In this document: one piece after another, positions 6,772 to 24,498 of the stretch
Layout of the letters: each line of letters starts with the position of its first letter
How positions within the stretch are numbered: position 1 is the first letter of the stretch
Origin: a bacterium
Lineage (GTDB): Bacteria; Armatimonadota; Zipacnadia; Zipacnadales; UBA11051
Length of the DNA stretch: 64,000 nucleotides
Assembly: GCA_021372615.1 (NCBI GenBank)
Contig: JAJFUB010000034.1
Span: 34,927-98,926 of the forward strand
Reading direction: 5' to 3'
Notes under the pieces: generated by a model
Database searches by the model: none
What the model was told of the DNA's origin: nothing
What the model saw: the letters and a program-made list of their open reading frames with translations, nothing else
Translations under genes and position numbers: made by a program

Positions 6772-6794
6772 GGCAAGTGGCAAGTGGCAAGTGG
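6772..6794. repeat. Tandem heptamer repeat (GGCAAGT x3)
   Basis: ggcaagtggcaagtggcaagtgg lies 9 nt after the stop of the Gfo gene. More caagg copies occur within the last codons of that gene. Confidence 0.6.
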
Positions 6795-6888
6795 CGGGCG
6801 GGACGCCGTTGCCGTAGCCGTCACCTCGGGGCCGCCGGCAGATGCTGGCGGCCCCGTATGCCAATCGGTCATGCCAGGAGGCAGTCCC

Positions 6889-8874: not shown

Positions 8875-8895
8875 GACGATGGCCGGGGCGTCGTT

Positions 8896-8925
8896 GGAGG
8901 GGCCGGCTATCAGCCGGGCCGCCGT
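8896..8925. repeat. 30-nt palindromic repeat ggaggggccggctatcagccgggccgccgt (second copy 36521-36550)
   Basis: 29/30 identity with the copy inside the sialidase-like CDS. The core ggccggctatcagccggcc is a hairpin (8-bp stem, atc loop). Confidence 0.6.
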
Positions 8926-8965
8926 ACGGTGCTCCCGTTGCTTTGTGACATCCGTCCCCAACGGC

Positions 8966-8986
8966 GGGCCGGATGATATCCGGCCC
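8966..8986 (+). terminator. Perfect hairpin gggccggat-gat-atccggccc downstream of CDS 6889-8874
   Basis: 9-bp perfect stem with a 3-nt loop. No U-tract. Confidence 0.35.
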
Positions 8987-9066
8987 CTCCCAAGGCGACG
9001 GCCGCAGGTTCGCGACAGGCCGCTGCCGAACTGCCGTCTCACAGCAAAGACGCACGGAGGAACACT

Positions 9067-10083: not shown

Positions 10084-10120
10084 CGGCGAAGGCACCGGAG
10101 AACCGAACCGAAAAGCAACG

Positions 10121-10150
10121 ACGCCACCCCTGGCCTGGGGGTGGCGTTTT
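10121..10150 (+). terminator. Rho-independent terminator (acgccacccc-tggcct-ggggtggcgt-tttt)
   Basis: 10-bp GC-rich perfect stem, 6-nt loop and a T4 tract, 38 nt after the Gfo stop. It lies between convergent genes. Confidence 0.75.
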
Positions 10151-10164
10151 CTACTGGAGTCAGC

Positions 10165-10878
10165 TCAGTCGGGCCGCTCGGCCCGTGGCAGGCTGAACAT
10201 GAACGTGGCACCCTGGCCCGGCGCGCTGTCTACGCGGATGTCGCCGCCCATGGCGTGCAGCAGGTTTTGACACACCGATAGCCCCAGTCCGGCGCCTGGC
10301 TCGATGCCGCTGACCTCCAGCGCAACAAAGGGCTCGAAGATGCGCTCCTGGTCGTCCGGGGCGATACCCGGGCCCTGGTCATGCACCAGCGTCCAGACCA
10401 CGGTCTCTTCCGGGCGGGCCGTGATCGTCACCGTGCCCCCTGGGGGGCTGTAGCGGATGGCGTTGGCCAGCAGGTTGTGCAGGACCTGCAGGACGCGGCG
10501 CTCATCCGCGCGCGCCGCCAGGGCGGGATCCACCTCGGCCGCCAGCGCCAGGCGCTTCTCATGGGCCAGTCCGCGGGCAATGTGCACCGAACGCTCCACC
10601 ACCGCCGCCAGGGACAGTACCTCGATCTGCAGGTCGAGCTTGGCCATCTGCAGGCGGGAGAGGTCCAGGACGTCATTGATGAGCTGCAGGAGGTGCTCGG
10701 CGGCGCTGTGGATGTCCTGCGCAACCGACTTCTGGTCCGGGTTGAGGGGGCCGAAGGCCTCATCGGTCAGCAGTTCGGAGAAGCCGATGATGGCGTGGAG
10801 GGGGCTGCGGACCTCGTGGCTGAGGTCCGCCAGAAAGCGTGCGCGCAACGCGATGGGGCCATCAGGTTCCTGCGCCAT
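10165..10878 (-). CDS. Cytoplasmic histidine kinase core (HisKA + HATPase_c only, no sensor/TM domain)
   Basis: H-box LSHEVRSPLHAI, N-box LLANAIRYS, G1 DQGPGI and G2 GAGLGLS motifs; 237 aa. No response regulator is adjacent. Confidence 0.7.
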   Translation of the reverse strand: MAQEPDGPIALRARFLADLSHEVRSPLHAIIGFSELLTDEAFGPLNPDQKSVAQDIHSAAEHLLQLINDVLDLSRLQMAKLDLQIEVLSLAAVVERSVHIARGLAHEKRLALAAEVDPALAARADERRVLQVLHNLLANAIRYSPPGGTVTITARPEETVVWTLVHDQGPGIAPDDQERIFEPFVALEVSGIEPGAGLGLSVCQNLLHAMGGDIRVDSAPGQGATFMFSLPRAERPD

Positions 10879-11017
10879 AGGTCATGCCCCTGGTCGGTGC
10901 CGGCAGGTCAACGGCAGGAATGACGCGAAGCTTCTAGCCATTCGCCGTGTGGCTGGGCCGGACCTGCCGCCCCGCGGCAGTAGCCGACCCGGCCAGCTTT
11001 CCCGTGGAGGAACGACC

Positions 11018-13363: not shown

Positions 13364-13378
13364 ACGTGCGATGCCGGA

Positions 13379-13562
13379 ACGGCGAACGGCTCCTCACCCC
13401 TCCCCCTCTCCCTCGCGCGGGATACAGCCCCGCGCTCCGGAGAGGGGTGTCGTCCGGCCACTTCGTGGCTGCGAAGTCATAGAGCAACATGCGACCGCCC
13501 CTCTCCGGAGCACAGCCGTATCGTGCGAGGGAGAGGGGGAGGGGTGAGGAGCCTTCGAGCCG
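13379..13562. repeat. Long nested palindrome (~180 bp) with 28-bp perfect terminal inverted repeats GCTCCTCACCCCTCCCCCTCTCCCTCGC (13389-13416 / 13525-13552); MITE/REP-like element
   Basis: Seen directly: perfect 28-bp arms, inner imperfect arms (ctccggagaggggtg / cgcccctctccggag) and a central small palindrome (acttcg...cgaagt). It lies in the intergenic region between CDS 11018-13363 and the HAD gene. Confidence 0.6.
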
Positions 13563-13579
13563 TCCTTCGCGAATCACAT

Positions 13580-14245
13580 ATGCCCACACGCACCATCACC
13601 GCCCTTCTCTTCGATCTGGATCAGACGCTCTACGCGCCGGAGACCGGCTTGCTGCCGGCCGGGGACCGGCGCATCACCGACTACCTTGCCCATCGCCTGA
13701 ACCTGCCGCGCGAGCAGGCCGACGCCGAGCGCCGGCGGCTCTGGCGCGAGTACGGCACGACCGCCCGCGGGGCGGAGATCGAGTACGGCCTGCCCCAGCG
13801 CGAGCTGTACCTCCACAGCCTGGAGGACCTCGACCCGCGCGAGTACCTGGGCCGTGACGAGGCGCTGGCGGGGATGCTGCAGGGCCTCGACGCCGACCGG
13901 TTCGTCGTCACCAATGCGGCGGGCAACTATGCCCGCCGCGTGCTGGCGGCGCTGGGGATTGACCACTGCTTCCAGCGCGTGTTCGACATCGAGGCCCTCG
14001 GCTGGCGCCCCAAGCCCGAGCACGCGGCCTACCAGTGCGTGCTGGACGCCCTCGGCCGCCCGGCGGCCGAGGTGGGGATGGTCGAGGACTTCCCGTGGAA
14101 CCTCGTCCCGGCGCAGGAGTTGGGGATGCTGACCGTCTACCTGGGCGCCGACGAGGCCGAGGCCGATGTGACGCTGACGAACCTGCTGGACCTGCCGGCG
14201 GCGCTGGCGGAGGCGGGGGTACGGCTCACCCACCCCCGGCGCTAG
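13580..14245 (+). CDS. HAD superfamily hydrolase (pyrimidine 5'-nucleotidase-like subfamily)
   Basis: Motif I LLFDLDQTLY directly after the ATG at 13580, a motif II-like VVTNAA and a C-terminal Asp motif region. The upstream extension from 13523 overlaps the palindromic element and was rejected. Confidence 0.65.
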   Translation: MPTRTITALLFDLDQTLYAPETGLLPAGDRRITDYLAHRLNLPREQADAERRRLWREYGTTARGAEIEYGLPQRELYLHSLEDLDPREYLGRDEALAGMLQGLDADRFVVTNAAGNYARRVLAALGIDHCFQRVFDIEALGWRPKPEHAAYQCVLDALGRPAAEVGMVEDFPWNLVPAQELGMLTVYLGADEAEADVTLTNLLDLPAALAEAGVRLTHPRR

Positions 14246-14251
14246 CGCGCC

Positions 14252-14276
14252 GACCCCTCCCCACAGGGGAGGGGTC
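14252..14276. repeat. Palindromic hairpin gacccctcccc-acag-gggaggggtc (CCCCTCCCC core)
   Basis: Perfect palindrome 6 nt after the HAD stop. Near-identical copy at 14391-14413. Confidence 0.6.
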
Positions 14277-14390
14277 CCGGGGCTCGACCGTTGGTCGGAT
14301 TCCCTGAAGCATGCCGGGGATGTGCTTCCGCCGGTTGCGGCAGGGGCCGACACTACCGGCATTGTAGTCACAACGCCATCGAACAGAGCA

Positions 14391-14413
14391 ACCCCTCCCC
14401 ACTGGGGAGGGGT
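14391..14413. repeat. Second copy of CCCCTCCCC-core hairpin acccctcccc-actg-gggaggggt
   Basis: Differs from the 14252 copy only in the loop. The two hairpins bracket a ~114-bp structured segment (gaagcat...atgtgcttc stem) upstream of the GH95 gene. Confidence 0.6.
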
Positions 14414-14457
14414 CGGCCCGCAGGGCCGGGGGTGGGTTGCCGTTCCGGGAGGCTTAC

Positions 14458-16695
14458 ATGAACACCACCATCTGGATGAACAAGCCCGCCGCCGACTGGC
14501 TCGAGGGCCTGCCCATCGGCACGGGGCGCCTGGCCGCGATGGTCCTCGGCGGCGTGAAGCGCGAGCAGGTGACGCTGAACCACGAGTGGCTCTGGACCGG
14601 TCGCAACCGCCAGCGCGACACAGAGCCCCGGGCCCACTTGCTCGAGCCCGTGCGGGAGTTGCTGCGGCAGGAGCGTTGGGAGGAGGCCGCGCAGGCTGCC
14701 AACGACGCCTTCGGCGGCGCGGGCGGCATCAGCGGCGTCCGGAACCGCGTGGACCCCTACCAGCCCGCTGCTGACCTGCTGCTCACCTTCAGCCACGGGC
14801 CATACCACCACTACCGCCGCAGCCTCGACCTGGAGAGCGGCATCGTGCGCGTGGAGTACGACGCCCAGCACGGCAACCGCATCACCCGCACCTACGTCGC
14901 CGACCTGAGCCACGACGCGATCTACGTGCACGTCGCGTTCGACGAGTACCCCCTCGAGTGCGTCGTGCAACTCGACCGCGGCTTCGACCCCGACTGCACG
15001 CTGACGCGCCGCGCCGCCGGCAGTCAACTCGACCTGCACGGCGCCATCCGCGACGGCATCGAGTTCCACGTACGCTGCCAGGCGGCGGTGCGTGAGGGCA
15101 CGGTACGGGCGAACGGCGACAACCGCCTGATCGTCAGCGGCGCGCGGGAGCTGCTGCTGGCGCTGGACCTGGGCACCAATGTGAAGCAGCCCGACGCGGC
15201 GGCCGAATGTGACGCGCCGCTGCCGAGCCTGGACGAGTGGCCGGACCTGGTGCGGGCGCACACGGAGACCTACCAGCGCGGGCGCGGGGGCTTCAGCCTG
15301 GAACTGGGCGACTTGCCGGACCGCGAGGCCATGCCGACGCCCGAGCGCATTCACCGCGCCCGCAATGGCGAGCCCGATCCCGGCCTGCCACTGCTGTACT
15401 TCAATCTGGCCCGCCACCTGATGCAGGCCAGCTCCGCGCTGGCCGACCTGCCGGCGAACCTGCAGGGCAAGTGGAACGAGGACCTGCGCCCGCCGTGGGA
15501 GTGCGACCTGCACCAGGACGTGAACCTGCAGATGAACTACTGGTTCGCCGAGCCGGCGGGCATGACGGAGTGCATCGAGGCGCTGTTCCGCCACATCGAG
15601 CGCTTCGTGCCGCACGCCCGCAAAGCCGCGCGCGACCTGTACGGCTGCCGCGGCGTGTGGTTCCCGATCCAGACCGACCCGTGGGGCCGCGCCACCCCGG
15701 AGTCCTACGGCTGGGCGGTGTGGATCGGTGCGGCGGCCTGGCTGGCGCAGCACTTCTGGTGGCGCTGGGACTTCGGCCGCGACCGGCAGTTCCTCGCCGA
15801 CCGCGCCTACCCGTTCATCAAGGACGTCGCGGCGTTCTACGAGGACTATCTCGTCGCGGACGCGGAGGGCGTCCTGCAAGTCATGCCCTCGCAGTCGCCC
15901 GAGAACCGCTTCGTTGGCAGCGGCAGTCGTTTCCCTGTCTCCATCGGCATCTCAGCGGCGATGGATGTGGAGCTGGCGCACGAGTGCCTCCGCCACGCGG
16001 TCGCGGCGTCCGAGGCCCTGGGCGTAGACGAGGACCTGCGCCGCACGTGGCAGGACATGCTGGGCCAGTTGCCGCCGCTGCAGGTCGGCTCGCGCGGACA
16101 ACTGCTTGAGTGGGACCGGGAGTTCGAGGAAGTCGAGCCCGGCCATCGGCACCTATCGCACCTGTACGCGCTCTATCCGGGCGACCAGATTGATCCACTG
16201 GACAGCCCGGAGCTGTTCACGGCGGCGCGGCGGTCACTGGAGATCCGACTGGAGAACTTCGGCGGCCACACCGGCTGGAGCCGCGCCTGGACGGCGTGCT
16301 GCTTCGCGCGCCTGGGTGACGCGGAGGCGGCGTGGGCGCACCTGATGCACCTGGCGACGGACTTCGTGACCGACGCACTGCTGGACCTGCACCCGCCGCG
16401 CATCTTCCAGATCGAGGGCAACTTCGGCGGAGCGGCGGCGATCCTGGAGATGCTGCTGCAGAGCCGCGGCGGGCGGCTGCATCTGCTGCCGGCCTTACCG
16501 GAGGTCTGGCCGAGTGGAGAGGTGAAGGGGCTGCGGGCGCGAGGAGGATTTGTGGTGGATATGAAGTGGGCGGCGGGGCGGCTGATGGAGGCAATTGTCA
16601 CCGCCCAGGAGACTGGTCCCTGCCGGATCATCCATGGGGATCAGGACCAGACGGTTACGTTGCAGGCCGGCGAGACCTACCAGGTGAACGGCTAG
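14458..16695 (+). CDS. Glycoside hydrolase family 95 (alpha-L-fucosidase type)
   Basis: N-terminus MNTTIWMNKPAADWLEGLPIGTGRLAAMVLGGV is the characteristic GH95 start. Length is 745 aa. ATG 14458 follows GGGAGG. The antisense ORF 14368-15879 and the TTG start at 14437 were rejected. Confidence 0.75.
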   Translation: MNTTIWMNKPAADWLEGLPIGTGRLAAMVLGGVKREQVTLNHEWLWTGRNRQRDTEPRAHLLEPVRELLRQERWEEAAQAANDAFGGAGGISGVRNRVDPYQPAADLLLTFSHGPYHHYRRSLDLESGIVRVEYDAQHGNRITRTYVADLSHDAIYVHVAFDEYPLECVVQLDRGFDPDCTLTRRAAGSQLDLHGAIRDGIEFHVRCQAAVREGTVRANGDNRLIVSGARELLLALDLGTNVKQPDAAAECDAPLPSLDEWPDLVRAHTETYQRGRGGFSLELGDLPDREAMPTPERIHRARNGEPDPGLPLLYFNLARHLMQASSALADLPANLQGKWNEDLRPPWECDLHQDVNLQMNYWFAEPAGMTECIEALFRHIERFVPHARKAARDLYGCRGVWFPIQTDPWGRATPESYGWAVWIGAAAWLAQHFWWRWDFGRDRQFLADRAYPFIKDVAAFYEDYLVADAEGVLQVMPSQSPENRFVGSGSRFPVSIGISAAMDVELAHECLRHAVAASEALGVDEDLRRTWQDMLGQLPPLQVGSRGQLLEWDREFEEVEPGHRHLSHLYALYPGDQIDPLDSPELFTAARRSLEIRLENFGGHTGWSRAWTACCFARLGDAEAAWAHLMHLATDFVTDALLDLHPPRIFQIEGNFGGAAAILEMLLQSRGGRLHLLPALPEVWPSGEVKGLRARGGFVVDMKWAAGRLMEAIVTAQETGPCRIIHGDQDQTVTLQAGETYQVNG

Positions 16696-16736: not shown

Positions 16737-17294
16737 ATGGCCAACAACGAGGTGGTGATGCCTTATGTGCAGCAGTGGGCGAACTACCTGGTTGGCGAGG
16801 GCTGCCGGCCGCCGGTCGTCAACGAGGGCAACAGGTGGCCCACGCGGCAGGAAGTGATCGCGGCCATCGAGGCAGAGGGCCTGCTGGCAGTGCCTCACGG
16901 CAGCGAAGAGGTCATCGTGCGGCCCCCTGCGGGCGCCCCGGAGGCAGTCGAGGGACTGCTGCGCCACGTGGTCGAGGTGCGGTGGGACGCGACAGGTGCG
17001 TTGGGGGAGGCAGGGCAGTCATCGTATCTCGTGATATTCCAGTGCCGGGACTGGGATCGCCTTGGGAACGATGATGTCGGCCTCTTCATCCATGGGCAGA
17101 ACTGGCCTCTAGAGGTCTTCCTGGTGCACCGTCTCGCCCAGGAATGCGGGCAACTTGTTCTGTACCCAAGCGGCGGCGGCGTCCCTCTCGTAGTCGGTCC
17201 CGACTCCGGCCCTGGCCAACTGGCCGGCCTCTGGCCGGAGGCTGATCGGAGAGAAGGCGGCTGCAAGTGGCTCTACGAGCAGATGAGCTGCTGA
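16737..17294 (+). CDS. Hypothetical protein (185 aa), no recognisable domain
   Basis: ATG 16737 is preceded by GAGGAG. Coding-like composition. Sits in a slightly lower-GC patch between GH95 and a URO-D-like gene. Confidence 0.4.
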   Translation: MANNEVVMPYVQQWANYLVGEGCRPPVVNEGNRWPTRQEVIAAIEAEGLLAVPHGSEEVIVRPPAGAPEAVEGLLRHVVEVRWDATGALGEAGQSSYLVIFQCRDWDRLGNDDVGLFIHGQNWPLEVFLVHRLAQECGQLVLYPSGGGVPLVVGPDSGPGQLAGLWPEADRREGGCKWLYEQMSC

Positions 17295-17347
17295 CGCAGC
17301 CACATCTGGTCGGCCCAAGAGAGAACCTCGAAGGAGATTCCACAGGT

Positions 17348-18394
17348 ATGGACAGCCGCCAGCGCGTTCTCGCCGCCATGAACTTCACCGGGCCGGACCG
17401 CTGCCCCATCCACCACTACTGCTTCCCCGGCGCGATCTGGCGCCACGGGCAGAGGCTACTCGACCTCGTCGAGAAGTACCCCGACGATTTCGACAACGAG
17501 AACATCAAGGCCAACGCGCAGGCCCACCAACTCGCGGCCAACGAGAGCGCCGAGGACATCATCGAGTGGGTGGATGGCTGGGGCACGACGTGGCGGCGGA
17601 TGCGCGGCTATACCTCGGGCGAGGTCCACCAGCCCGCCCTGCCCGACTGGGACGCCTGGCGTGGCTACGAGTTCCCCCCACTGCCCGATGACAAGCACTT
17701 CGCGGACTTCGCGGCCTCCGTCCAGCCGCGGCAGGAGGCCGGGGAGTTCGTGCGCGCCGGCGGCGGCCCGTTCTTCCAACACATGCAGCATCTGCGCGGC
17801 AACGCCAACTACTACGTAGACCTGGCCGAGGATAACGAGGGGGTCAACGAACTGGCCGACCGCATGGTCGCCTACAACCTGTACTCCATCGAGCGCTATG
17901 TGCAGATGGGCGTGGACTGCATCGCCTTCGGCGACGACTGGGGCGCCCAGCACGCCCTGCTCATCCACCCGGACATGTGGCGCCGGTTCTTCAAGCCCCG
18001 CTATGCCAGGATGTTCGCCCCTGCCCGCGAGCACGGGATCCAGGTCTGGTTCCATTCGGACGGGTGGATCCTGGAGATCATCGAGGACCTCATCGAGATC
18101 GGCGTGACGCTGCTGAACCCCCAGCATGACATCATGGGCACGCGGCGCGTGGGGGAGATCGTCCGGGGCCGCTGCTGCATCCGCACCGACATCAGCCGCC
18201 AGACGGTCATCCCCTTCGGCACGCCCAACGACATTCGCGCGGCGGTCAGGGAAGCCCTCGAGGCCTTCAGCACCGACGCCGGCGGCTGCATGCTCCACGG
18301 TGAGATCGGCCAGGAAGTCCCCTTCGAGAACATCGAGGCGCTGTATGCAGCGTTCTATGAGTACGGGCAGTACCCGATGGAGTGGCGGAGGTAG
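17348..18394 (+). CDS. URO-D family protein (uroporphyrinogen decarboxylase / methylcobamide methyltransferase MtaA-like fold)
   Basis: ATG 17348 is preceded by AAGGAG. Translation (...FFQHMQHLRGNANYYVDLAED...GVDCIAFGDDWGAQHALLIHPDMWRRFFKPRYARMF...HSDG...) fits the URO-D TIM-barrel family. 348 aa. Confidence 0.65.
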   Translation: MDSRQRVLAAMNFTGPDRCPIHHYCFPGAIWRHGQRLLDLVEKYPDDFDNENIKANAQAHQLAANESAEDIIEWVDGWGTTWRRMRGYTSGEVHQPALPDWDAWRGYEFPPLPDDKHFADFAASVQPRQEAGEFVRAGGGPFFQHMQHLRGNANYYVDLAEDNEGVNELADRMVAYNLYSIERYVQMGVDCIAFGDDWGAQHALLIHPDMWRRFFKPRYARMFAPAREHGIQVWFHSDGWILEIIEDLIEIGVTLLNPQHDIMGTRRVGEIVRGRCCIRTDISRQTVIPFGTPNDIRAAVREALEAFSTDAGGCMLHGEIGQEVPFENIEALYAAFYEYGQYPMEWRR

Positions 18395-18397
18395 CCC

Positions 18398-18808
18398 ATG
18401 AGTTCATCCAAGGCCTCACCGCTGGGGATCATCCTGCTCATCGGGCTGATGGTCGTCTTCTTCAGCCCGGCGCGCTCGACCATCCCCCAGCAGGAAGCGG
18501 ACGCCATCCGCGCCCGGTTCGGCGTCCGCCCCGGTGCGGTAGTCGTCTTCCAGAACCCTGGGTGAGGGGCCTGCACCATGCTCTTTGAGCAGCTCGATGC
18601 CGTGGGCATCAGCTATGTGCCGGTCAATGTCACCGCCTCAGAACGCGCCATCCAAACGCTGCGGGACCTGGGGAAGAACAGCTTCGGCATGACGACACGG
18701 ATGCCGACACCGACGACGCTGGTGGGGAGGCGAGTCATCCGGGGAGCGGATGTGAAGAGGATCCAGCAGGCCCTGATCGAGGAGCGGAAGGGTAGCTCAA
18801 CTCGCTGA
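18398..18808 (+). CDS. Putative selenoprotein: membrane-anchored glutaredoxin/NrdH-like thioredoxin-fold protein with in-frame TGA (18563-18565) read as Sec in a U-G-A-C (CxxC-type) redox motif
   Basis: ATG 18398, 4 nt after the URO-D stop, opens a 55-codon ORF (MSSSKASPLGIILLIGLMVVFFSP...GAVVVFQNPG) ending at TGA. The same frame continues GACTMLFEQLDAVGISYVPVNV... (track ORF 18578-18808). Joined, the sequence AVVVFQNPG-U-GAC-TMLFEQLDAVGISY aligns residue for residue with the glutaredoxin pattern VVIY-x3-CPYC-x10-GVxY. The downstream RMPTPTTLVGRRVIRGADVKRI matches the cis-Pro TVPxIFIxGxxIGGxDD region. Neither half has a complete fold on its own. Confidence 0.55.
18591..18614 (+). promoter_or_regulatory. 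Candidate bacterial SECIS-like hairpin downstream of the in-frame UGA
   Basis: agctc-gatgcc-GUG-ggcatc-agct forms a ~10-bp stem with one bulge and a GUG apical loop whose G lies ~37 nt after the UGA. A smaller hairpin tgctc-ttt-gagca starts 11 nt after the UGA. Consistent with bSECIS geometry but not diagnostic. Confidence 0.3.
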
Positions 18809-19768
18809 ATCCATGTTCTTCGTCTTGAGCACGCGCAGCAACGTCTGCATGTTCTCCTGGAAGCTGCCGGTCGTGAAGTCCATCGCCTGATCGCCCTCTC
18901 GCAGCGGCGTGCCGCCGGGGGCCGCGCCACCGTCTGCGGCTGGCCCGATGGTGACCGGTACAACCATGCCGCCCTGTTCGAGGGCATACTTGTACTCGTA
19001 TTCGACCCACTCTGATCTAAGGCCGGCCTCGCTCACGAAGAGCAGGATGAAACCCTCGGCCGCAGCGGTCTCGATGCTACGCCGCATGATCCCGGCCAGG
19101 TCCACGCCCGCAGCGTCATCATCGTCGAAGTAGACCCGGTATTCGTGCTGCCTGAGAGCCTCGGCAATGGGTCTGACGAGTTCCTGATCTTCCCGCGAAT
19201 AGGCCATGTAGATCGTCACACGCCGCGAGAGCCCTGTGACCGCCGCGAGTTGCTCGTCCCAGTCGTGCGTCAGATCCACGTTCGCCGTGTATTTGCCCGG
19301 AAGCCCCCTGATGTACTCCAGCTCCATCTGCACCCACTTGGAGTTGCGCGCGTTGGGGCTGTCACAGAGCAGGAACCACGTGCGCGCCTCGATCTCGCGC
19401 CTGATCAGGTCATCCAGCTCGGCGTTGTCGTCCAGGCAGCGCAGGAAGAACAGCAAGGGATTGTGTCCCTTGGCCTCCAGTGCATTGCGGACACGGCGGA
19501 CCTCTTCAAGATCCCGGTGCGAATGGGAAACAAAGATCCACGCGCCTTCGGGGGCGGGTTCGCCCGGCCCGCCCTCTGCACGCGCCGAGGGGGCGGGGGC
19601 CAGGCCCGTGGGCCCGTCAACGGCCAGCTTGTCTCGCACGAGACCATGGCGCACGTCCTGTGCTAGCTCGAGGTCGTCGTCCACTGCGCCCACTAGCTCG
19701 CTGTTGCTGAGGTGGCCGCGAGCGTTGAGTAGCTGGAGGACCTTGCTCGACGCCTGCTCGATGTTCAC
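18797..19768 (-). CDS. Tandem TIR-domain protein (two Toll/interleukin-1 receptor-like domains) with short N-terminal helical (wHTH-like) region
   Basis: GTG start 19768 preceded by AGGAGA. Domain 1 reads IFVSHSHRDLEEV...LLFFLRC...SKWVQMELEYI. Domain 2 reads IYMAYSREDQELV...ILLFVSEAGLRSEWVEYEYKYA. Both carry a conserved Glu in the WxxxE position. Local GC is below the window average. The 3' end overlaps the selenoprotein candidate by 12 nt, and only 11 nt separate it from the GH127 stop. Confidence 0.6.
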   Translation of the reverse strand: MNIEQASSKVLQLLNARGHLSNSELVGAVDDDLELAQDVRHGLVRDKLAVDGPTGLAPAPSARAEGGPGEPAPEGAWIFVSHSHRDLEEVRRVRNALEAKGHNPLLFFLRCLDDNAELDDLIRREIEARTWFLLCDSPNARNSKWVQMELEYIRGLPGKYTANVDLTHDWDEQLAAVTGLSRRVTIYMAYSREDQELVRPIAEALRQHEYRVYFDDDDAAGVDLAGIMRRSIETAAAEGFILLFVSEAGLRSEWVEYEYKYALEQGGMVVPVTIGPAADGGAAPGGTPLREGDQAMDFTTGSFQENMQTLLRVLKTKNMDSAS

Positions 19769-19779
19769 GCCTCGGTCTC

Positions 19780-21687
19780 CTACGTAACCTCGCGGTCGGC
19801 CTTACTCGCCACCCACACCCGCATCGCCGCCGGGCCGCGATTGGCCCAGGCGTAGTAGGGGATGGCGGTGATGTGCGCCGGCACCTGGCCGGTCTTGTAG
19901 CCCTGGGCGACCGCCGCATACAGCGGCCGTTCGGTCGGCACGCAGCCAAAGCCAGGCCCCTCGATGACGACGACCCCGCCGAGCAGATCCTCGCGCCAGA
20001 CAGCCTCCCAACTCGCCGGCAGGCCCTCACCCGGGGTCACCGACACCGACAGCTCTGCCACCGGCGTCCGGTGATCCACGCTCTCCACACAGTACACGAT
20101 CGGTCCGCGCTTGAGCGCCACGGCACCCCGGTCCTCGGTGACGTTGGGATGGGCCTCGAGCGCCTCCAGTGCCATCGGCAGGTCAAGCTGCACCACGTCA
20201 CCCGGCTGCCACTGCCGCTGGATGACGAGGTAGGTGCCCGGCTCGCCCGCCAGGGGCTGAGCCCCGCCGACGAAAGCCGCCGCGCCATCGGCCCACGTGG
20301 GGATGCGCAGGTGCAGCGCGAAGTCCGCGGCCTCGTCGAGCCCGACCGTGATCGTGATGCCCCCGTCCCACGGGTAGCGCGTCTCGATCTTCAGGCGCAC
20401 CGGGCCCACGCCCGGCACGTCCACTGCGGCCTCCAGCGCATCGTACAGGTGCACGTGCACCTCGCGCTCGGCGACGGTGACGAAGTAGCCGGGCAGCGAG
20501 GCGAGCAGGCGCTGGACGTTCGGCGGGCAGCAGGTGCAGCCGTGCCATGTGCTGCGCTGCGTGGGCGGCACGCGGTGCCCGGTGGCCGATACGGATTCCT
20601 TCCCGTCGTGGGCGAGTGGATTCATGTAGAAGTACTGGTAGCCGTCCAGGTCCACGCCGCTGCGCAGACCGTTGTAGAGGATCCACTCCATCGCCTCCGC
20701 GTACTGGCCTTCGCCGGTGAGCAGGAGCATGCGGAAGGCCCACATGAAGTGGCCGATCTGGGCGCACGTCTCGGCGTAGGCGCGCGCGTTGGGCAGCTCG
20801 TACGGCTCGCCGAAGGCCTCGCCCTCGTAGCGGGCTCCGACGCCGCCGGTCACGTAGATCTTGCCGCCGACGAGGTCCTGCCACAGGCGCTGCAGGTTGG
20901 CCATCATCTCCGGGTCGCCCGTCTCCATTACGAGGTCAGCCCCCCCGCAACAGATGTACGACGACCGCACGGCGTGGCCGATGAGGCTCTCGCGCTGGGC
21001 GATGGGCGGGAGGTTGGCGTGTGACTGCGGGCGGCTCAGCAGGAAGGCAGCCAGGTCGAGGTAGCGCCGCTCGCGGGTGTGGCGGTATAGCTCGATGAGC
21101 GCCAGCTCGACTTCGGGGTGGCCGTCGGTCGTGCCGTTTCTGCCGGGGCCGAAGACGCTGTCGAGGTGGTCGGCGAAGCGACAGGCGACCTGCAGCAGCG
21201 TGTCATCGCCGGTGGCGCGGGCGACCGCCACGGCGCCCTGCATCAGGTGGCCGGCGCAGTACATCTCGTGCGAGTACTCCAGGTGCTGGTAGCGCTCGCC
21301 GGCCCGCTCCTCGATGAAGTAGGTGCTCAGGTAGCCGTCGTCGCCCTGGGCCGCGGCGATGTCGGCGATGTCGGCCTCCAGGAGGCTGCGCAGGTCCGGG
21401 TGGTCCTCGGTCTGCAGCACATAGCCGGCGGCCTCGATCCACTTGTAGAGGTCCGAGTCGGTGAAGAGCGGGCCCCGGCGCGCCACGTCCTTGCCGGCGA
21501 GGCGGCGGAAGTTGTCCATGTGGCCGTTCTCTTCGAGCAGGCCATGCAAGCGCGGGAGGCCGTTCTCGACATTGCCCCGGCGCAGGGGCGTCCAGAAGGC
21601 GTCGTCGGCCAGGCGCACGGCGGGCAGGGGCACGGTGTGCAGGCGCACATGGGGGCTGTGTGAGGTGTCGAGAATCGGGGTAGCCAT
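19780..21687 (-). CDS. Glycoside hydrolase family 127 (beta-L-arabinofuranosidase HypBA1-like, DUF1680)
   Basis: 635 aa. Contains the GH127 Cys-rich zinc motif STWHGCTCCPPN and a conserved region around EYSHEMYCAGHLMQG. Antisense ORFs 19873-21024 and 21118-21663 were rejected. Confidence 0.75.
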   Translation of the reverse strand: MATPILDTSHSPHVRLHTVPLPAVRLADDAFWTPLRRGNVENGLPRLHGLLEENGHMDNFRRLAGKDVARRGPLFTDSDLYKWIEAAGYVLQTEDHPDLRSLLEADIADIAAAQGDDGYLSTYFIEERAGERYQHLEYSHEMYCAGHLMQGAVAVARATGDDTLLQVACRFADHLDSVFGPGRNGTTDGHPEVELALIELYRHTRERRYLDLAAFLLSRPQSHANLPPIAQRESLIGHAVRSSYICCGGADLVMETGDPEMMANLQRLWQDLVGGKIYVTGGVGARYEGEAFGEPYELPNARAYAETCAQIGHFMWAFRMLLLTGEGQYAEAMEWILYNGLRSGVDLDGYQYFYMNPLAHDGKESVSATGHRVPPTQRSTWHGCTCCPPNVQRLLASLPGYFVTVAEREVHVHLYDALEAAVDVPGVGPVRLKIETRYPWDGGITITVGLDEAADFALHLRIPTWADGAAAFVGGAQPLAGEPGTYLVIQRQWQPGDVVQLDLPMALEALEAHPNVTEDRGAVALKRGPIVYCVESVDHRTPVAELSVSVTPGEGLPASWEAVWREDLLGGVVVIEGPGFGCVPTERPLYAAVAQGYKTGQVPAHITAIPYYAWANRGPAAMRVWVASKADREVT

Positions 21688-21699
21688 GGGTTCCTCCGT

Positions 21700-22125
21700 C
21701 TATTCGTCGGCAATCCGGTAGAACTGCCGGTGAGCGTCGTCGGCATACTCCACCCGGCCCTCCTTGAGGACCAGGCACAGGTTCCGTGCGTCGTACAGCA
21801 GGCTCACATCGGTGGCGGGGTCGCCGGACACGACGAGCAGGTCGGCTAGCTTGCCCGGCTCCAGTGTGCCGAGGGAAGGGAGCTTTCGATAGGCGGCGGC
21901 ATTTACCTGCGTCGCGGCGGTGAGGGCCTCCAGGGGCGACAGGCCGCAGGCCACCAGCTCCTGTAGCTCAACCAGTGTGCGGTCGCCCAGGCGCCAGGTG
22001 CGGGGCGTCCCCGGATAGTCGGTGCCGACCCTGGTCGGTAGCGATAGGCAGGGCATTCGGGGCCGTCGCGGCATGACGGAGGTTTCACCACACCGGAGGC
22101 GGGGGCCTGCCCGGCGCCTGGGCAT
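21700..22125 (-). pseudogene. Amidohydrolase-family C-terminal fragment (N-terminal ~300 aa of a normal amidohydrolase missing)
   Basis: Translation ...VGTDYPGTPRTW...LSPLEALTAATQVNAAAYRKLPSLGTLEPGKLADLLVVSGDPATDVSLLYDARNLCLVLKEGRV matches the metal-dependent amidohydrolase C-terminus (GSLEVGKxADLVVLDxNP...V). Only ~110 alignable residues remain before the unrelated divergent promoter at 22126-22196. Confidence 0.45.
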
Positions 22126-22178
22126 CCGTTCTTGCCGTTCTCTTGCGGATCAGGTAGGTACAGGATGTGATATCTTCT

Positions 22179-22193
22179 GTATCGCTATGATAC
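22179..22193. promoter_or_regulatory. Inverted repeat GTATC-N5-GATAC in AT-rich divergent promoter region (candidate operator)
   Basis: gtatcgctatgatac lies in the unusually AT-rich stretch 22141-22200. It is immediately upstream of the HTH-thioredoxin fusion gene, at -42 to -28 if GTG 22221 is the true start. Confidence 0.35.
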
Positions 22194-22196
22194 GGT

Positions 22197-22793
22197 ATGA
22201 CACGCAGGAGGGTGACTCCAGTGGATGAGCTTCTGTCCCTCGCCGAGGCCGCTGAGACTCTCAACGTTAGCGAGATCACGGTCAAGCGCTACATCTACGC
22301 CGGGAAGCTCAAGTCCCACAAGCTGCCCGGCGGCCGACACCGCATCCCCCGGTCGGAACTGACGCGTCTGCTGGAGGGTGGGGCGGCCCCGCCGGCCCCC
22401 GAGGAGGTCGTGACCGGCCTCGAAGCCCGGGTGGACGAGCTGGAGGCGGCCCTGGAGCACATCTCGGCGGAGCTGCAGGTGCTGGCGGCCTGGTGCGCGC
22501 GCCGCCAGGAGGAGCTGCCCGAGACGGAGGCGCCGGCCGCGACACAACGCGTCGTCGAGGTGCTCGGGCCCGGCTGCACCAAGTGCCGCAAGCTGCACGC
22601 GACGGTCCTGGAAGTGGTGGGGGAGTCATTCGCCGAGACCTTCCAGGTTGCGCATGTGACCGACCTGGACCACATCACGGCCTATGGGCCGCTCCTGACG
22701 CCTGCCCTCGTCATTGACGGCAAGGTTGTCTCAGCGGGACGAGTGCTGCTGGCCGATGAGGTGCAGCGGCTGTTGGCCAAGGCGCTTCAATAG
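22197..22793 (+). CDS. Fusion protein: N-terminal excisionase/MerR-type HTH (HTH_17-like) + C-terminal small thioredoxin-like domain (redox-active disulfide protein 2 / Thioredoxin_3 family, CxxC = GCTKC)
   Basis: The N-terminus LLSLAEAAETLNVSEITVKRYIYAGKLKSHKLPGGRHRIPRSEL matches the excisionase-family DNA-binding helix. A Pro/Ala/Glu linker follows. The C-terminus VVEVLGPGCTKCRKLHATVLEVV...GPLLTPALVIDGKVVSAGRV matches the TM0983-like thioredoxin family. An alternative GTG start at 22221 has a better AGGAGG spacing. Confidence 0.6.
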   Translation: MTRRRVTPVDELLSLAEAAETLNVSEITVKRYIYAGKLKSHKLPGGRHRIPRSELTRLLEGGAAPPAPEEVVTGLEARVDELEAALEHISAELQVLAAWCARRQEELPETEAPAATQRVVEVLGPGCTKCRKLHATVLEVVGESFAETFQVAHVTDLDHITAYGPLLTPALVIDGKVVSAGRVLLADEVQRLLAKALQ

Positions 22794-22811
22794 GCACTCC
22801 GGAGGCACGAA

Positions 22812-23252
22812 GTGAGCAATCGCTGCACATCGCAGGCCCGTCCGTCGGTTGCCCTGCTGGGCTGTAGTGGCATCGGGCAGCTCATGTCCACTGTCGTGCG
22901 CCGTGCCTGCCTCCGCGTGGCGGAGCAACACCCCGAGGTCGTGCTGCTGTCGGTCGGCGCGCTGACCGGCGACGTGCCGGAGGTGCTGCAGCAAGGCCGG
23001 GCATTGCCTGTCATCCTCGTGGACGGCTGCCGCGAGCACTGCGGCACGATCCTGTGCGAAGCCAAGGGCCTCAACGTCGTCTCGAAGCTGTTTGCGCTCA
23101 CACTGGTCCAGAGGGACCATATGCGGCTGGCGGGTGAGGACCGCGCGAACCTGGGCGAGATCGGGCTGGCGGCGGTCGCCGACGTGGCCGCCGGGATCAG
23201 CGCCGAGGTGCGCCGGCTGCAGGACGATCTAACCGCCGAGGAGGTGGCATGA
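22812..23252 (+). CDS. DGC-domain protein (putative zinc-binding, PF08859-like)
   Basis: Contains the motif PVILVDGCREHCGTILCEAKG that gives the family its name, plus N-terminal LLGCSGIGQL. 146 aa. Confidence 0.5.
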   Translation: MSNRCTSQARPSVALLGCSGIGQLMSTVVRRACLRVAEQHPEVVLLSVGALTGDVPEVLQQGRALPVILVDGCREHCGTILCEAKGLNVVSKLFALTLVQRDHMRLAGEDRANLGEIGLAAVADVAAGISAEVRRLQDDLTAEEVA

Positions 23253-23653
23253 TGCCCGATCGGGTCTGCCTGCAGCCCTGCCTGGGCAGCACCAGCGCCG
23301 CCGCGACGGTAGGCCGACAGGCTACCTACGCCGCCCTGGCCGAGTTGGGGCGGGCCGCCGACCTCGGCTGCGCCCCGGCGCTGTTCGCCGAAGTCCCCGA
23401 GGACGTCATCTTCGTCCAGCAGGACTATGTCATCGCCATCGAGTCATGCGACAGGCTCTGTGCCAATCACCTCGTCGCGCAGAAGGGCTATCCCGTGCAC
23501 GCGACCGTGCGCGTGGATGAGGTCCTCAGCGGTGCGGGCATTGACAGCGCGGTCCTGCCGGCGGAGACCATCCCGCTGGATCATCCGGCCGTGGTCGCCG
23601 TGTGCGCGGAGATCGTGCGCGTGGCGCGGCAGCTACTGGAGGGGATGGCGTGA
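23249..23653 (+). CDS. Cys-rich DGC-like paralogue (DGC replaced by ESC: VIAIESCDRLCANHL)
   Basis: Overlaps the upstream gene by 4 nt (ATGA). Similar size and Cys spacing to the preceding DGC protein. Confidence 0.4.
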   Translation: MMPDRVCLQPCLGSTSAAATVGRQATYAALAELGRAADLGCAPALFAEVPEDVIFVQQDYVIAIESCDRLCANHLVAQKGYPVHATVRVDEVLSGAGIDSAVLPAETIPLDHPAVVAVCAEIVRVARQLLEGMA

Positions 23654-24498
23654 GGAGCCGGCTCTGCGCCGAGATGTTCGCCGAAGCCGCGGGCTCGTAC
23701 GTCCTGTGCTTCTTCGGGCCTGGCGCGGTGGCCGTCTCGGTCCTGATGGGCGGGCACACGGGCCTCTGGCAGGTGGCCTCCGTCTGGGGCTTTGCCATCG
23801 CGCTGGCGATCTACGCCGTGGGCTCGGTCTCCGGGGCGCACCTGAACCCGGCGGTGACGCTGGCGATGGCCGTGTACCGCAAGTTCCCGGCCGGCAAGGT
23901 GCTGCCGTACGTGCTGGCGCAGATGGCCGGCGGCGTTTTGGCGGCGGCCACGCTGCTGGTGCTCTTCAACGGTACGTGCCTGCACTTCGAGGCCACGCAT
24001 CACATCGTGCGCGGGATGCCCGGCAGCCAGCTCTCGGCCATGTGGTTCGGCGAGTACTTCCCCAACCCCGCGGTCTACGGCACCGACGCCGAGGCCTTCG
24101 TGCAAGTCGGCGTGAAGACCGCCTTCCTGGCCGAGGCCGTGGGCACGGCGTTCCTGCTGTTCTTCATCATGGCGCTGACGGACCCCCGCAACGACGCGTC
24201 CGCCGGCAGGGCGAACCTGCATCCCCTCCTCATCGGCTTTGCGGTGGCCATCATCATCAGCATCGTGGCCCCCCTGACCCAGGCAGGACTGAACCCCATG
24301 CGCGACTTCGCCCCGCGCATCGTGGCGTACTTCGCCGGGTGGGGGACCATCGCCATCCCCGGCCCGCGCCGCGTGGACGTCTGGGTCTACATCCTCGCCC
24401 CGCTGGTGGGCGGCCTGGCGGGCGCCGGGGCATACCAGGCGCTCATCCATGCCGGACGCCTGGCCATGGCCCCGGGCTCCCAGGCCGAGGCGGCCTGA
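23650..24498 (+). CDS. MIP-family channel, aquaglyceroporin (GlpF-like); first NPA intact (HLNPAVT), second motif NPM (GLNPMRDFAPR)
   Basis: Six TM segments inferred from hydrophobicity. The GlpF-like signatures AGGVLAA and GLNPMRDFAPRIVAYFAGWG are present. A GTG start at 23650 overlaps the upstream stop (GTGA); the alternative ATG at 23674 (MFAEAAGSYVL) is also plausible. Confidence 0.75.
   Translation: MRSRLCAEMFAEAAGSYVLCFFGPGAVAVSVLMGGHTGLWQVASVWGFAIALAIYAVGSVSGAHLNPAVTLAMAVYRKFPAGKVLPYVLAQMAGGVLAAATLLVLFNGTCLHFEATHHIVRGMPGSQLSAMWFGEYFPNPAVYGTDAEAFVQVGVKTAFLAEAVGTAFLLFFIMALTDPRNDASAGRANLHPLLIGFAVAIIISIVAPLTQAGLNPMRDFAPRIVAYFAGWGTIAIPGPRRVDVWVYILAPLVGGLAGAGAYQALIHAGRLAMAPGSQAEAA

What the first reader, a model, noticed from the sequence alone, without database searches (positions are those of the whole stretch)
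18797..19768. Tandem double-TIR protein embedded between a selenoprotein candidate and a GH127 gene
One polypeptide carries two complete TIR-like domains (IFVSHSHRD... and IYMAYSRED...), each with the conserved Glu in the WxxxE position, plus a ~60-aa N-terminal helical region. Bacterial TIR domains are NAD-cleaving effectors in antiphage systems (Thoeris and others), but a duplicated TIR in a single ORF is uncommon. The gene has lower GC than its neighbours. It is 11 nt downstream of GH127 (same strand, GTG start with RBS), and its 3' end overlaps the convergent Grx-like gene by 12 nt. This is an unusual context for a defence gene. It could be a cargo gene or have a non-defence NADase or signalling role.
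Basis: partly seen in the sequence, partly recalled or inferred. Interest (0 to 1): 0.55.

Follow-up and report, generated by a model that had tools for sequence, protein, structure and literature searches.

The report
Orphan tandem-TIR immune-type protein
This gene encodes one protein with two fused TIR domains, the NAD-cleaving module of bacterial, plant and animal immunity; it belongs to a widespread but unstudied family, and here it sits alone, without the partner genes its relatives often have.

Summary
ORF 18797-19768 (-) encodes a 323-aa protein, already in NCBI as MCE5237948.1, "TIR domain-containing protein". It has a short N-terminal helical module, a disordered Pro/Ala/Gly linker and two TIR domains. 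Each TIR passes Pfam TIR_2 on its own and each carries the WxxxE glutamate.

It is not a one-off duplication. It belongs to a family of roughly 255-aa tandem-TIR proteins: about 630 clusters at 50% identity, and 94 hits among 185,579 species genomes spread over many phyla. The two halves are unequal. TIR-A is about 62% identical across phyla with an invariant Glu149 (dN/dS 0.06). TIR-B is about 30% identical (dN/dS 0.31).

In 31 of 80 related loci the gene lies near TIR-STAND NTPases, other TIR genes or RyR-domain proteins, and RyR domains were recently shown to bind or cleave cADPR isomers. The other 49 loci are solitary, like this one. The 64-kb window has no partner gene. The GH127-TIR arrangement recurs in two related metagenome contigs, so this is not a recent insertion.

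Best reading: a self-contained, NAD-consuming conflict or immunity enzyme, not yet tested biochemically. It is a new architectural variant of a known kind, of moderate interest.

The parts
18797..19768 (-). Whole ORF, 323 aa, GTG start; tandem-TIR protein (identical to NCBI MCE5237948.1)
19777..19780 (-). GGAG Shine-Dalgarno-like motif 8 nt upstream of the GTG start. It overlaps the TAG stop of GH127 (19780-19782). The same TAGGAG is present in L092.
   Evidence: sequence read
19628..19768 (-). Residues 1-47: N-terminal helical module (three helices, 3-17, 22-28 and 33-46, in the full-length model). It is found only in this clade (P0001-P0003). Substitutions against L092 are biased to the third codon position and dN/dS is 0.20, so it is translated.
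19547..19627 (-). Residues 48-74: Pro/Ala/Gly-rich linker, predicted disordered (pLDDT below 50 for residues 48-69)
19217..19546 (-). Residues 75-184: TIR-A, a compact four-strand TIR. This is the highly conserved half: 62% identity to distant family members, invariant H82 S83 D86 R94 E98 F107 L109 L121 E125 R129 F132 E149, and dN/dS 0.06.
19322..19324 (-). Codon of Glu149 (WVQME). Putative catalytic glutamate of TIR-A, invariant in 116 of 116 aligned family members.
18809..19216 (-). Residues 185-320: TIR-B, a canonical full-length TIR_2. This is the fast-evolving half: 30% identity to family members and dN/dS 0.31.
18995..18997 (-). Codon of Glu258 (WVEYE). It aligns with the Glu of the W-x-x-x-E motif of the AbTir and BtTir chains in PDB, and is Glu in 103 of 116 family members.
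19780..21687 (-). Context: GH127 beta-L-arabinofuranosidase gene, 11 nt upstream on the same strand. It is syntenic in L092 and L011.
18398..18808 (+). Context: convergent glutaredoxin-like ORF with an in-frame TGA at 18563-18565 (a UxxC motif). It overlaps the TIR gene's 3' end by 12 nt.

Best explanation
The gene encodes a self-contained TIR enzyme of the bacterial conflict or immunity type.

Shown. The protein has three parts: a small N-terminal helical module, a disordered linker and a rigid tandem-TIR core. It belongs to a widespread, patchily distributed family whose core is the two fused TIRs. TIR-A is under very strong constraint and keeps an invariant glutamate at the catalytic position. 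TIR-B is a canonical TIR_2 that evolves about five times faster.

Inferred. TIR-A is the NAD+-cleaving or ADPR-cyclising half. TIR-B supplies the second TIR surface that every known active TIR assembly needs to complete or gate the active site. TIR-B, or the clade-specific N-terminal module, senses the trigger or drives oligomerisation. When triggered, the protein either depletes NAD+ (abortive infection) or releases an ADPR-derived nucleotide.

In relatives the same core sits beside TIR-STAND NTPases and RyR-domain proteins, and RyR domains bind cADPR isomers. That points to NAD-derived nucleotide chemistry. In this genome the gene is a solitary copy. It has been vertically maintained just downstream of GH127 and is probably read from the same transcript, so it must act alone or with partners encoded elsewhere.
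For: Fold and catalytic residues.
- Both halves pass Pfam TIR_2 independently.
- The AF2 model has mean pLDDT 85.6 and pTM 0.73, with block means of 95-97 across the TIR-A/TIR-B junction, residues 161-200.
- Foldseek matches SPARTA TIR-APAZ, MyD88, SARM1 and AbTir TIR domains.
- Glu258 aligns with the WxxYE glutamate of the AbTir and BtTir chains. Glu149 aligns with the WELGY glutamate of the TIR protein in PDB 8btn.

Family.
- More than 100 tandem-TIR homologues of about 255-265 aa were found.
- 632 clusters reach E<=1e-30.
- 94 hits occur in 185,579 species genomes from at least nine bacterial phyla and a methanogen. This patchy spread is typical of mobile defence genes.

Asymmetry.
- TIR-A is 62% identical to distant members and TIR-B is 30%.
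- dN/dS is 0.06 for TIR-A and 0.31 for TIR-B.
- E149 is invariant, and E258 is Glu in 103 of 116.

Context in relatives.
- A TIR-NPHP3_N/NACHT-wHTH(-RyR) gene lies directly upstream on the same strand in L012, L015, L018, L020, L026 and L027; in L074 the same kind of gene lies about 1 kb downstream.
- Neighbours also include TIR-WD40-patatin, Macro-TIR and TIR-Sel1 genes.
- RyR-domain ORFs lie within 10 kb in 19 of 80 loci. One is a tandem-TIR-RyR fusion in L040.
- One relative lies in an integrase-bounded island.
- RyR-domain phage proteins bind or cleave 2'/3'cADPR (PMC13232231; 10.64898/2026.06.04.730250).
- PADLOC ThsB-type TIR models hit both halves.
Against: - No enzymatic or phage-defence data exist for any member of this family.
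- The window has no other TIR, STAND or RyR gene in 64 kb. It also has no integrase or tRNA near the gene.
- The gene is embedded in a glycoside-hydrolase locus and has been stably syntenic with GH127 across relatives at 62-82% identity. That pattern looks more like a resident gene than a mobile defence gene.
- No homologue is found on sequenced plasmids or phages.
- The very high conservation of TIR-A across phyla is unusual for defence TIRs. It could instead reflect a conserved housekeeping substrate or partner.
- The geometry of the TIR-A/TIR-B interface could not be examined, so the 'composite active site' step is pure inference.
Confidence: 0.5

Rival explanations
1. ThsB-like signal generator acting in trans. 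The tandem TIR senses infection and makes a cADPR-type or other ADPR-derived messenger. A receptor or effector encoded elsewhere in the genome, for example a RyR-domain protein, responds to it.
For: - PADLOC ThsB models match at down to 1.6e-13.
- RyR-domain genes or fusions accompany relatives in 19 of 80 loci.
- RyR domains bind or cleave gcADPR (PMC13232231; 10.64898/2026.06.04.730250).
- Both glutamates are retained.
Against: - No effector-like gene is adjacent here, and no RyR gene lies in the 64-kb window.
- 49 of 80 family loci are solitary, whereas Thoeris-type systems are operonic.
- The NCBIfam Thoeris model ThcB4 scores 16 bits against a cut-off of 220.
Confidence: 0.22
2. Non-enzymatic TIR adaptor or regulator. 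The tandem TIR docks onto other TIR proteins such as TIR-STAND receptors, nucleating or restraining their assembly in the way MyD88 and MAL do in animals.
For: - A TIR-STAND gene lies immediately upstream, sometimes overlapping, in the closest species-genome relatives.
- At least 26 of 80 loci have another TIR gene within 6 kb.
- Foldseek ranks MyD88 TIR filaments among the top matches.
Against: - Glu149 is invariant and Glu258 is Glu in 103 of 116 members. An adaptor has no need for either.
- Most loci, including this one, have no TIR partner nearby.
Confidence: 0.1
3. Resident, non-defence NAD(P) or nucleotide-processing enzyme or regulator in this lineage. It could be a nucleosidase or cADPR-related hydrolase co-expressed with GH127, or an HTH-TIR regulator.
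For: - GH127 followed by the TIR gene is conserved in three related genomes, with gaps of 11-19 nt and a shared TAGGAG.
- All three parts of the protein are under purifying selection.
- The N-terminal helical module could be HTH-like.
- No mobile-element marks are nearby.
Against: - No glycosidase or other metabolic neighbour recurs across the 80 family loci.
- The distribution is patchy, at about 0.05% of species genomes.
- The recurrent neighbours are STAND, TIR, RyR, patatin and Macro genes.
- The N-terminal module has no significant family match: DUF5805 scores 18 bits against a cut-off of 28.5.
Confidence: 0.12

Closest known systems
Thoeris ThsB (TIR-only sensor and signal synthase)
   Same: A small cytoplasmic TIR protein with the catalytic-position glutamate. 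PADLOC ThsB profiles match both halves, and Pfam ThsB_TIR matches at 2.1e-08.
   Different: Two TIRs are fused in one chain. No ThsA or other Thoeris effector gene is adjacent. The NCBIfam Thoeris equivalog score is far below its cut-off. The 2025 systematic survey of TIR signalling systems discarded stand-alone TIRs and does not mention tandem TIRs or RyR.
Single-gene TIR abortive-infection proteins (SpbK; Swarozyc/DUF4062)
   Same: One polypeptide combines a TIR or TIR-like NADase with an accessory sensing or oligomerising domain and acts alone (PMC12847820; 10.64898/2026.05.01.722283). TIR-A shows weak similarity to DUF4062. One family member, P0056, carries an N-terminal DUF4062.
   Different: The accessory part here is a second TIR plus a 47-aa helical module. 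It is not a coiled-coil stalk or a portal-binding domain. DUF4062 scores 15.5-17.5 bits, below the Pfam cut-off of 24.7.
Bacterial TIR-STAND / TIR-NLR receptors (bNACHT, Avs-type)
   Same: These are the most frequent immediate neighbours of the closest species-genome relatives. There is a weak PADLOC TIR-NLR hit at E 0.0049.
   Different: The window protein has no NTPase domain, and no STAND gene lies within 64 kb.
AbTir / BtTir / TcpB-type bacterial TIR NADases and SPARTA TIR-APAZ
   Same: These are the closest solved structures by sequence (7uxr at E 4.7e-4, and 8g83) and by fold (8qlp, 8spo, 7uxu). The W-x-x-x-E motif aligns.
   Different: Those proteins have one TIR per chain. They become active only when two or more chains assemble, and they carry coiled-coil or APAZ partners.
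Eukaryotic tandem-TIR proteins (mollusc Toll-2 family; Dictyostelium TirE)
   Same: Two TIR domains in tandem in one polypeptide (PMC4929906; PMC13142454).
   Different: Those are receptor or RCC1-repeat multidomain proteins. Their duplications arose independently, and no sequence relationship was found.

Membership tests
TIR domain superfamily (Pfam TIR_2, PF13676) | HMM score above the gathering cut-off | tested here: met
   The whole protein scores 106.6 bits. TIR-A alone scores 47.3 and TIR-B alone 64.8, against a cut-off of 28.
TIR domain superfamily (Pfam TIR_2, PF13676) | Flavodoxin-like alpha/beta fold superposable on solved TIR domains | tested here: met
   The AF2 model has pLDDT 85.6. 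Foldseek gives probability 1.00 to SPARTA, MyD88, SARM1 and AbTir TIRs, with TM-scores normalised to the target of 0.56-0.80 for the single-domain TIR entries.
Enzymatic (NADase) TIRs | Glutamate at the alphaC position (W/F-x-x-x-E) | tested here: met
   E149 and E258 are both present. E258 aligns to the AbTir and BtTir motif and E149 to the 8btn motif. E149 is conserved in 116 of 116 members and E258 in 103 of 116.
Enzymatic (NADase) TIRs | NAD+ cleavage or cyclisation activity | not testable with these tools
   Needs an in vitro assay.
Enzymatic (NADase) TIRs | Composite active site from a head-to-tail (BB-loop to DE-surface) TIR pair | not testable with these tools
   The structure tool returns no coordinates or PAE. 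Only the rigid junction is seen (pLDDT 95-97 over residues 161-200).
Thoeris (ThsB plus effector) | Adjacent effector gene (ThsA SIR2/SLOG, Macro/TM, caspase-like and others) | tested here: not met
   The neighbours are GH127, a Grx-like ORF, a URO-D-like gene, GH95, an amidohydrolase remnant and an HTH-thioredoxin gene.
Thoeris (ThsB plus effector) | Match to a curated Thoeris equivalog model | tested here: not met
   NCBIfam ThcB4 scores 16 bits against a cut-off of 220. The PADLOC ThsB hits are generic TIR matches.
TIR-NLR / TIR-STAND systems | STAND NTPase in the same protein or in an adjacent gene | tested here: not met
   An HMM built from the relatives' NTPase modules finds nothing in the 64-kb window. 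The feature is met in relatives: adjacent upstream in L012, L015, L018, L020, L026 and L027, and about 1 kb downstream in L074.
DUF4062 / Swarozyc | Pfam PF13271 score above the cut-off | tested here: not met
   15.5-17.5 bits against a cut-off of 24.7.
SEFIR | Significant SEFIR profile match | tested here: not met
   The PADLOC bSEFIR E-value is 0.029, and there is no Pfam SEFIR hit.
Unnamed tandem-TIR family (core of about 255 aa) | EGAW[IV]F[VL]SHS...[WF]F[LVI]LC[DE]S motifs in TIR-A, followed without a linker by a TIR_2 domain | tested here: met
   The motifs are present in the query. The alignment of 116 members covers residues 75-320. The family profile finds 632 clusters at E<=1e-30.

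The most novel reading that the evidence does not exclude
The tandem-TIR core is a pre-assembled, asymmetric TIR pair: a minimal enzyme in which a fused, fast-evolving TIR-B gates a conserved catalytic TIR-A. Higher-order filament formation would then not be needed to build the active site.

In the wider family this enzyme would feed cADPR-type signals to host-encoded RyR-domain receptors or buffers. That would be a bacterial TIR-to-RyR signalling axis not yet described as an immune system, and it would echo cADPR-ryanodine-receptor signalling in animals.

On this reading, the window's copy is an orphan branch that replaced the partner with an N-terminal helical sensor.
Probability: 0.2. Interest if true: 0.8.

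Novelty: new variant of a known kind. Interest (0 to 1): 0.45.

Why it matters
All known active TIR enzymes need at least two TIR domains from separate chains to form one active site. A family that fuses two unequal TIRs in one chain could be a natural minimal model of that requirement, and it would be a convenient target for structure and enzymology.

The recurrent neighbourhood of relatives also matters. They sit beside TIR-STAND receptors and RyR-domain proteins, and RyR domains were shown in 2026 to bind or cleave cADPR isomers when phages encode them. This suggests host-encoded RyR modules take part in TIR signalling, which the systematic survey I read does not report.

For this particular genome the practical message is more modest. 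The gene is a correctly annotated TIR protein, an orphan member of that family, and its position next to GH127 is a lineage-specific accident of synteny rather than a functional link.

Tried and rejected
- Thoeris membership was rejected. There is no effector neighbour, and the curated model score is far below its cut-off.
- SEFIR and DUF4062 are both below threshold.
- The recent-insertion ('cargo') idea was rejected on conserved synteny in L092 and L011. No tRNA was found, and none of the nearby or larger window genes scanned with Pfam is an integrase.
- A plasmid or phage origin is unsupported. tblastn found no match in 72,556 plasmid and 50,697 phage records.
- The promoter and terminator scan of 17000-23000 was uninformative: no promoter-like site, and one terminator-like hairpin inside the ORF, which is no more than the shuffles give.
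- A Foldseek search of AFDB50 for other tandem-TIR architectures could not be run because the library is unavailable.
- Modelling the N-terminal module alone gave only pLDDT 69 and a different helix pattern, so it was not used for a fold search.
- The N-terminal module has no significant Pfam match.
- Literature searches for bacterial tandem TIR proteins found only eukaryotic cases.
- The possible SECIS hairpin after the neighbour's UGA is no more stable than shuffled sequence, with a z-score of -0.37.
Full report
**1. What is there.**
The ORF at 18797-19768 on the minus strand is real: 323 aa with a GTG start. An identical protein is in NCBI as MCE5237948.1, 'toll/interleukin-1 receptor domain-containing protein [bacterium]', from a 113.5-kb contig.

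Pfam TIR_2 matches it at 1.5e-30 in two stretches. Scanned separately, residues 74-182 score 47.3 bits and residues 182-323 score 64.8 bits, both well above the 28-bit gathering cut-off. PADLOC's ThsB-type TIR profiles also match both halves, down to 1.6e-13.

Both halves carry W-x-x-x-E: W145/E149 and W254/E258. phmmer against PDB aligns E258 with the glutamate of the W-T-x-Y-E motif in the BtTir (7uxr) and AbTir (8g83) chains. It aligns E149 with the W-E-L-G-Y glutamate of the TIR protein in 8btn.

The spacing claims are exact:
- The GH127 gene (Pfam 1.9e-89) stops at TAG 19780-19782.
- 11 nt separate that stop from the GTG start.
- GGAG lies 8 nt upstream of the start.
- The 3' end overlaps the convergent glutaredoxin-like ORF by 12 nt.

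The gene's GC (0.642) and GC3 (0.805) are lower than those of GH127 (0.702 and 0.920). They sit about 2 sd below the window's ORF mean. One other gene in the window is equally low.

**2. Anatomy.**
An AlphaFold2 model built on 116 homologues has mean pLDDT 85.6 and pTM 0.73. It shows these parts:
- Three short helices at residues 3-46, with pLDDT above 90.
- A disordered Pro/Ala/Gly linker at 48-69.
- A compact four-strand TIR-A at 77-184. Its last helix (170-184) runs without any linker into the first strand of TIR-B.
- A full five-strand TIR-B at 185-320.

Confidence across the junction is 95-97, so the two TIRs are predicted as one rigid body. The dips in confidence fall in the two BB-loop regions (about 109-120 and 214-223) and in a Gly/Ala/Pro insertion at 275-292.

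Foldseek against PDB returns only single-domain TIR matches: SPARTA TIR-APAZ, MyD88, SARM1, AbTir, SpbK and Cat1. No tandem-TIR chain appeared among the matches listed.

The N-terminal module is translated. Against the 82%-identical relative, 20 of its 32 nucleotide differences are at third codon positions and dN/dS is 0.20. The GTG start and the TAGGAG motif are both conserved. The module has no significant family match.

**3. It is a family, not a local duplication.**
The word-indexed search found more than 100 proteins of about 255-265 aa. They are 42-54% identical and cover about 76% of the query, that is, both TIRs without the N-terminal extension.

A profile of these, run against 1.84 billion cluster representatives, finds 632 clusters at E<=1e-30. 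That compares with 66,663 at E<=1e-3, which are mostly ordinary TIR proteins. The tandem family is therefore roughly 1% of detectable TIR relatives.

Pattern scanning of one genome per species found 94 carriers among 185,579 species. They include Planctomycetota, Acidobacteriota, Verrucomicrobiota, Bacteroidota, Chloroflexota, Alphaproteobacteria, Nitrospirota, Actinomycetota, Desulfobacterota and a Methanoregula. This is a thin, patchy spread.

The N-terminal helical module occurs only in the window protein and its two closest relatives, P0002 and P0003. A few other members carry different additions: DUF4062 in P0056, and RyR in P0071 and L040.

**4. The two halves are unequal.**

| Measure | TIR-A | TIR-B |
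|---|---|---|
| Identity to 113 distant members | 62% | 30% |
| dN/dS against the 82% relative | 0.06 | 0.31 |
| Catalytic-position Glu | E149, 116 of 116 | E258, 103 of 116 |

Eleven other TIR-A positions are also invariant: H82, S83, D86, R94, E98, F107, L109, L121, E125, R129 and F132.

The two halves of the query align to each other only weakly, so the fusion is ancient. I read this as a conserved catalytic half plus a diversifying regulatory or sensing half. That assignment is an inference.

**5. Context in relatives.**
I called ORFs in the 80 species-genome loci and clustered the neighbours.

The largest neighbour cluster is a 730-990-aa protein directly upstream on the same strand, sometimes overlapping the tandem-TIR start. 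Pfam shows it is a TIR-NPHP3_N/NACHT P-loop-TANC1-like wHTH protein, that is, a TIR-STAND or NLR-like receptor. It occurs upstream in L012, L015, L018, L020, L026 and L027, and about 1 kb downstream in L074. Some copies have a C-terminal RyR domain.

Other recurrent neighbours are TIR-WD40-patatin, Macro-TIR, TIR-Sel1 and further TIR-X proteins.

HMMs built from these neighbours show another TIR gene within 6 kb in at least 26 of 80 loci. RyR-domain ORFs lie within 10 kb in 19 of 80 loci. Many of these are stand-alone RyR proteins of 96-107 aa just downstream. There is also one tandem-TIR-RyR fusion.

One relative lies in an island bounded by a phage-type integrase.

Altogether 31 of 80 loci have such partners. 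The other 49 are solitary genes in unrelated surroundings such as benzoyl-CoA-reductase-like or ThiC neighbourhoods. Both glutamates are retained in both classes.

I did not compute a formal genomic background for these frequencies. The enrichment rests on TIR and RyR genes being rare in prokaryotic genomes, which is general knowledge rather than a test made here.

**6. Why RyR matters.**
Two 2026 preprints bear on this. Phage RyR-domain proteins hydrolyse 2'cADPR and 3'cADPR (RyDEP, PMC13232231). They also sequester gcADPR and cADPR with nanomolar affinity (RyR Tad, 10.64898/2026.06.04.730250).

Host-encoded RyR domains next to, or fused with, tandem-TIR genes therefore point to ADPR-derived nucleotides as the currency of these loci.

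The systematic survey of TIR signalling systems (10.64898/2025.12.03.692087) explicitly discarded stand-alone TIRs. It does not mention tandem TIRs or RyR. My literature searches found tandem TIRs only in molluscan Tolls and Dictyostelium TirE.

**7. Context in this window.**
Nothing of this partner set is present. The TIR, STAND-NTPase and RyR HMMs hit only the tandem-TIR gene itself in the 64 kb. There are no tRNAs.

The neighbours are as follows:
- GH95, GH127 and a DUF4838/GH67N-like gene.
- A URO-D-like protein.
- A Grx-like ORF.
- A truncated amidohydrolase.
- An HTH_17-thioredoxin gene.
- Two DGC-domain genes.
- A MIP channel.

Two related metagenome contigs keep the same arrangement. 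L092 (TIR 82% identical) has the GH127 C-terminus, the same TAGGAG motif, an 11-nt gap and the same overlapping Grx-like gene. L011 (TIR 62% identical, GH127 73% identical) has GH127 19 nt upstream but a different downstream gene.

The gene has therefore been inherited at this spot for a long time, and it evolves somewhat faster than its neighbour. No glycosidase recurs beside other family members, so I treat the GH127 link as lineage-specific synteny and probable co-transcription, not as a functional coupling.

**8. Mechanism and rivals.**
My best reading (confidence 0.5) is a self-contained NAD-consuming TIR enzyme of the conflict or immunity type. TIR-A would be catalytic. TIR-B would provide the second TIR surface that all known active assemblies require. 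TIR-B or the clade-specific N-terminal module would sense the trigger or drive oligomerisation.

Shown:
- The TIR fold of both halves and the glutamates.
- The asymmetry between the halves.
- The size and spread of the family.
- The partner genes in relatives and their absence here.

Inferred:
- Catalysis.
- The division of labour between the halves.
- The intramolecular composite site.
- The immune role.

Rivals:
- A ThsB-like signal generator whose receptor lies elsewhere in the genome (0.22).
- A catalytically irrelevant TIR adaptor for other TIR proteins (0.10). The invariant Glu149 and the many partnerless loci argue against it.
- A resident non-defence enzyme or regulator (0.12). The stable synteny favours it. 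The patchy distribution and the nature of the recurrent neighbours argue against it.

**9. Membership.**
The protein is a member of the TIR_2 superfamily and of the unnamed tandem-TIR family.

It fails the tests for the following:
- Thoeris: no effector neighbour, and the curated model is far below its cut-off.
- TIR-NLR: no NTPase.
- DUF4062/Swarozyc: below threshold.
- SEFIR: below threshold.

It may still work like a ThsB or a stand-alone TIR NADase.

**10. Verdict.**
The protein is a new architectural variant of a known kind, already annotated generically as a TIR protein.

Interest is moderate (0.45). The window's copy is an orphan. The family behind it has three features worth experimental follow-up: the fused unequal TIR pair, the TIR-STAND neighbours and the RyR neighbours.

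Noticed in passing
window 18398-18808 (+), TGA at 18563-18565; also L092:1017-1325 (-) and L010:989-1399 (-): The convergent glutaredoxin-like ORF has an in-frame TGA that gives ...VVFQNPG-U-GAC-TMLFEQLD, a UxxC redox motif, preceded by a hydrophobic N-terminal helix. The TGA and the coding character of both flanks are conserved in the 82%-identical relative, where amino-acid substitutions upstream of the TGA keep the frame. This supports a selenocysteine read-through protein. The downstream hairpin is not more stable than shuffled sequence (z -0.37), and no tRNA-Sec lies in the window.
   Followed up: partly
L012-L091 (for example L048:10271-10561, L061:10955-11260, L084:6291-6581, L040:9977-11323, L027:7508-9949): RyR-domain (PF02026) ORFs accompany tandem-TIR genes in 19 of 80 species-genome loci. 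They occur as 96-107-aa stand-alone proteins (Pfam about 126 bits), as a tandem-TIR-RyR fusion in a Methanoregula MAG, and as the C-terminus of a TIR-STAND protein. Recent work shows phage RyR proteins bind or cleave cADPR isomers, so these may be host receptors or buffers for TIR signals. No formal background frequency was computed.
   Followed up: partly
L012, L015, L018, L020, L026, L027 (gene directly upstream of the tandem-TIR gene): A TIR-NPHP3_N/NACHT-TANC1-like wHTH (STAND/NLR-like) gene sits immediately upstream on the same strand and sometimes overlaps the tandem-TIR start. This suggests a two-gene TIR-NLR plus tandem-TIR module in these relatives; in L074 the same kind of gene lies about 1 kb downstream.
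   Followed up: partly
window 21700-22125 (-): A 141-aa ORF matches only the last 75 or so positions of the amidohydrolase profiles (Amidohydro_1 positions 268-343 of 345). It appears to be a truncated remnant just upstream of GH127, hinting at an old rearrangement at this boundary.
   Followed up: no
window 22197-24498 (+): A cluster made up of an HTH_17-Thioredoxin_3 fusion, two DGC-domain proteins and a MIP-family channel. It may be a redox or metalloid-related operon and looks unrelated to the TIR gene.
   Followed up: no
proteins P0144, P0162, P0186, P0219, P0242, P0247: Giant proteins of 1,400-2,200 aa with 5-7 separate matches to the tandem-TIR profile, that is, poly-TIR arrays. Their context and function were not examined.
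   Followed up: no
window 6784-16695 and 19780-21687: The surrounding locus is rich in glycoside hydrolases: a weak, sub-threshold Glyco_hydro_42 (GH42) match, a DUF4838/GH67N-like gene, GH95 and GH127, plus a GFO/IDH/MocA oxidoreductase. It looks like a plant-glycan (fucose and arabinofuranose) utilisation region.
   Followed up: no
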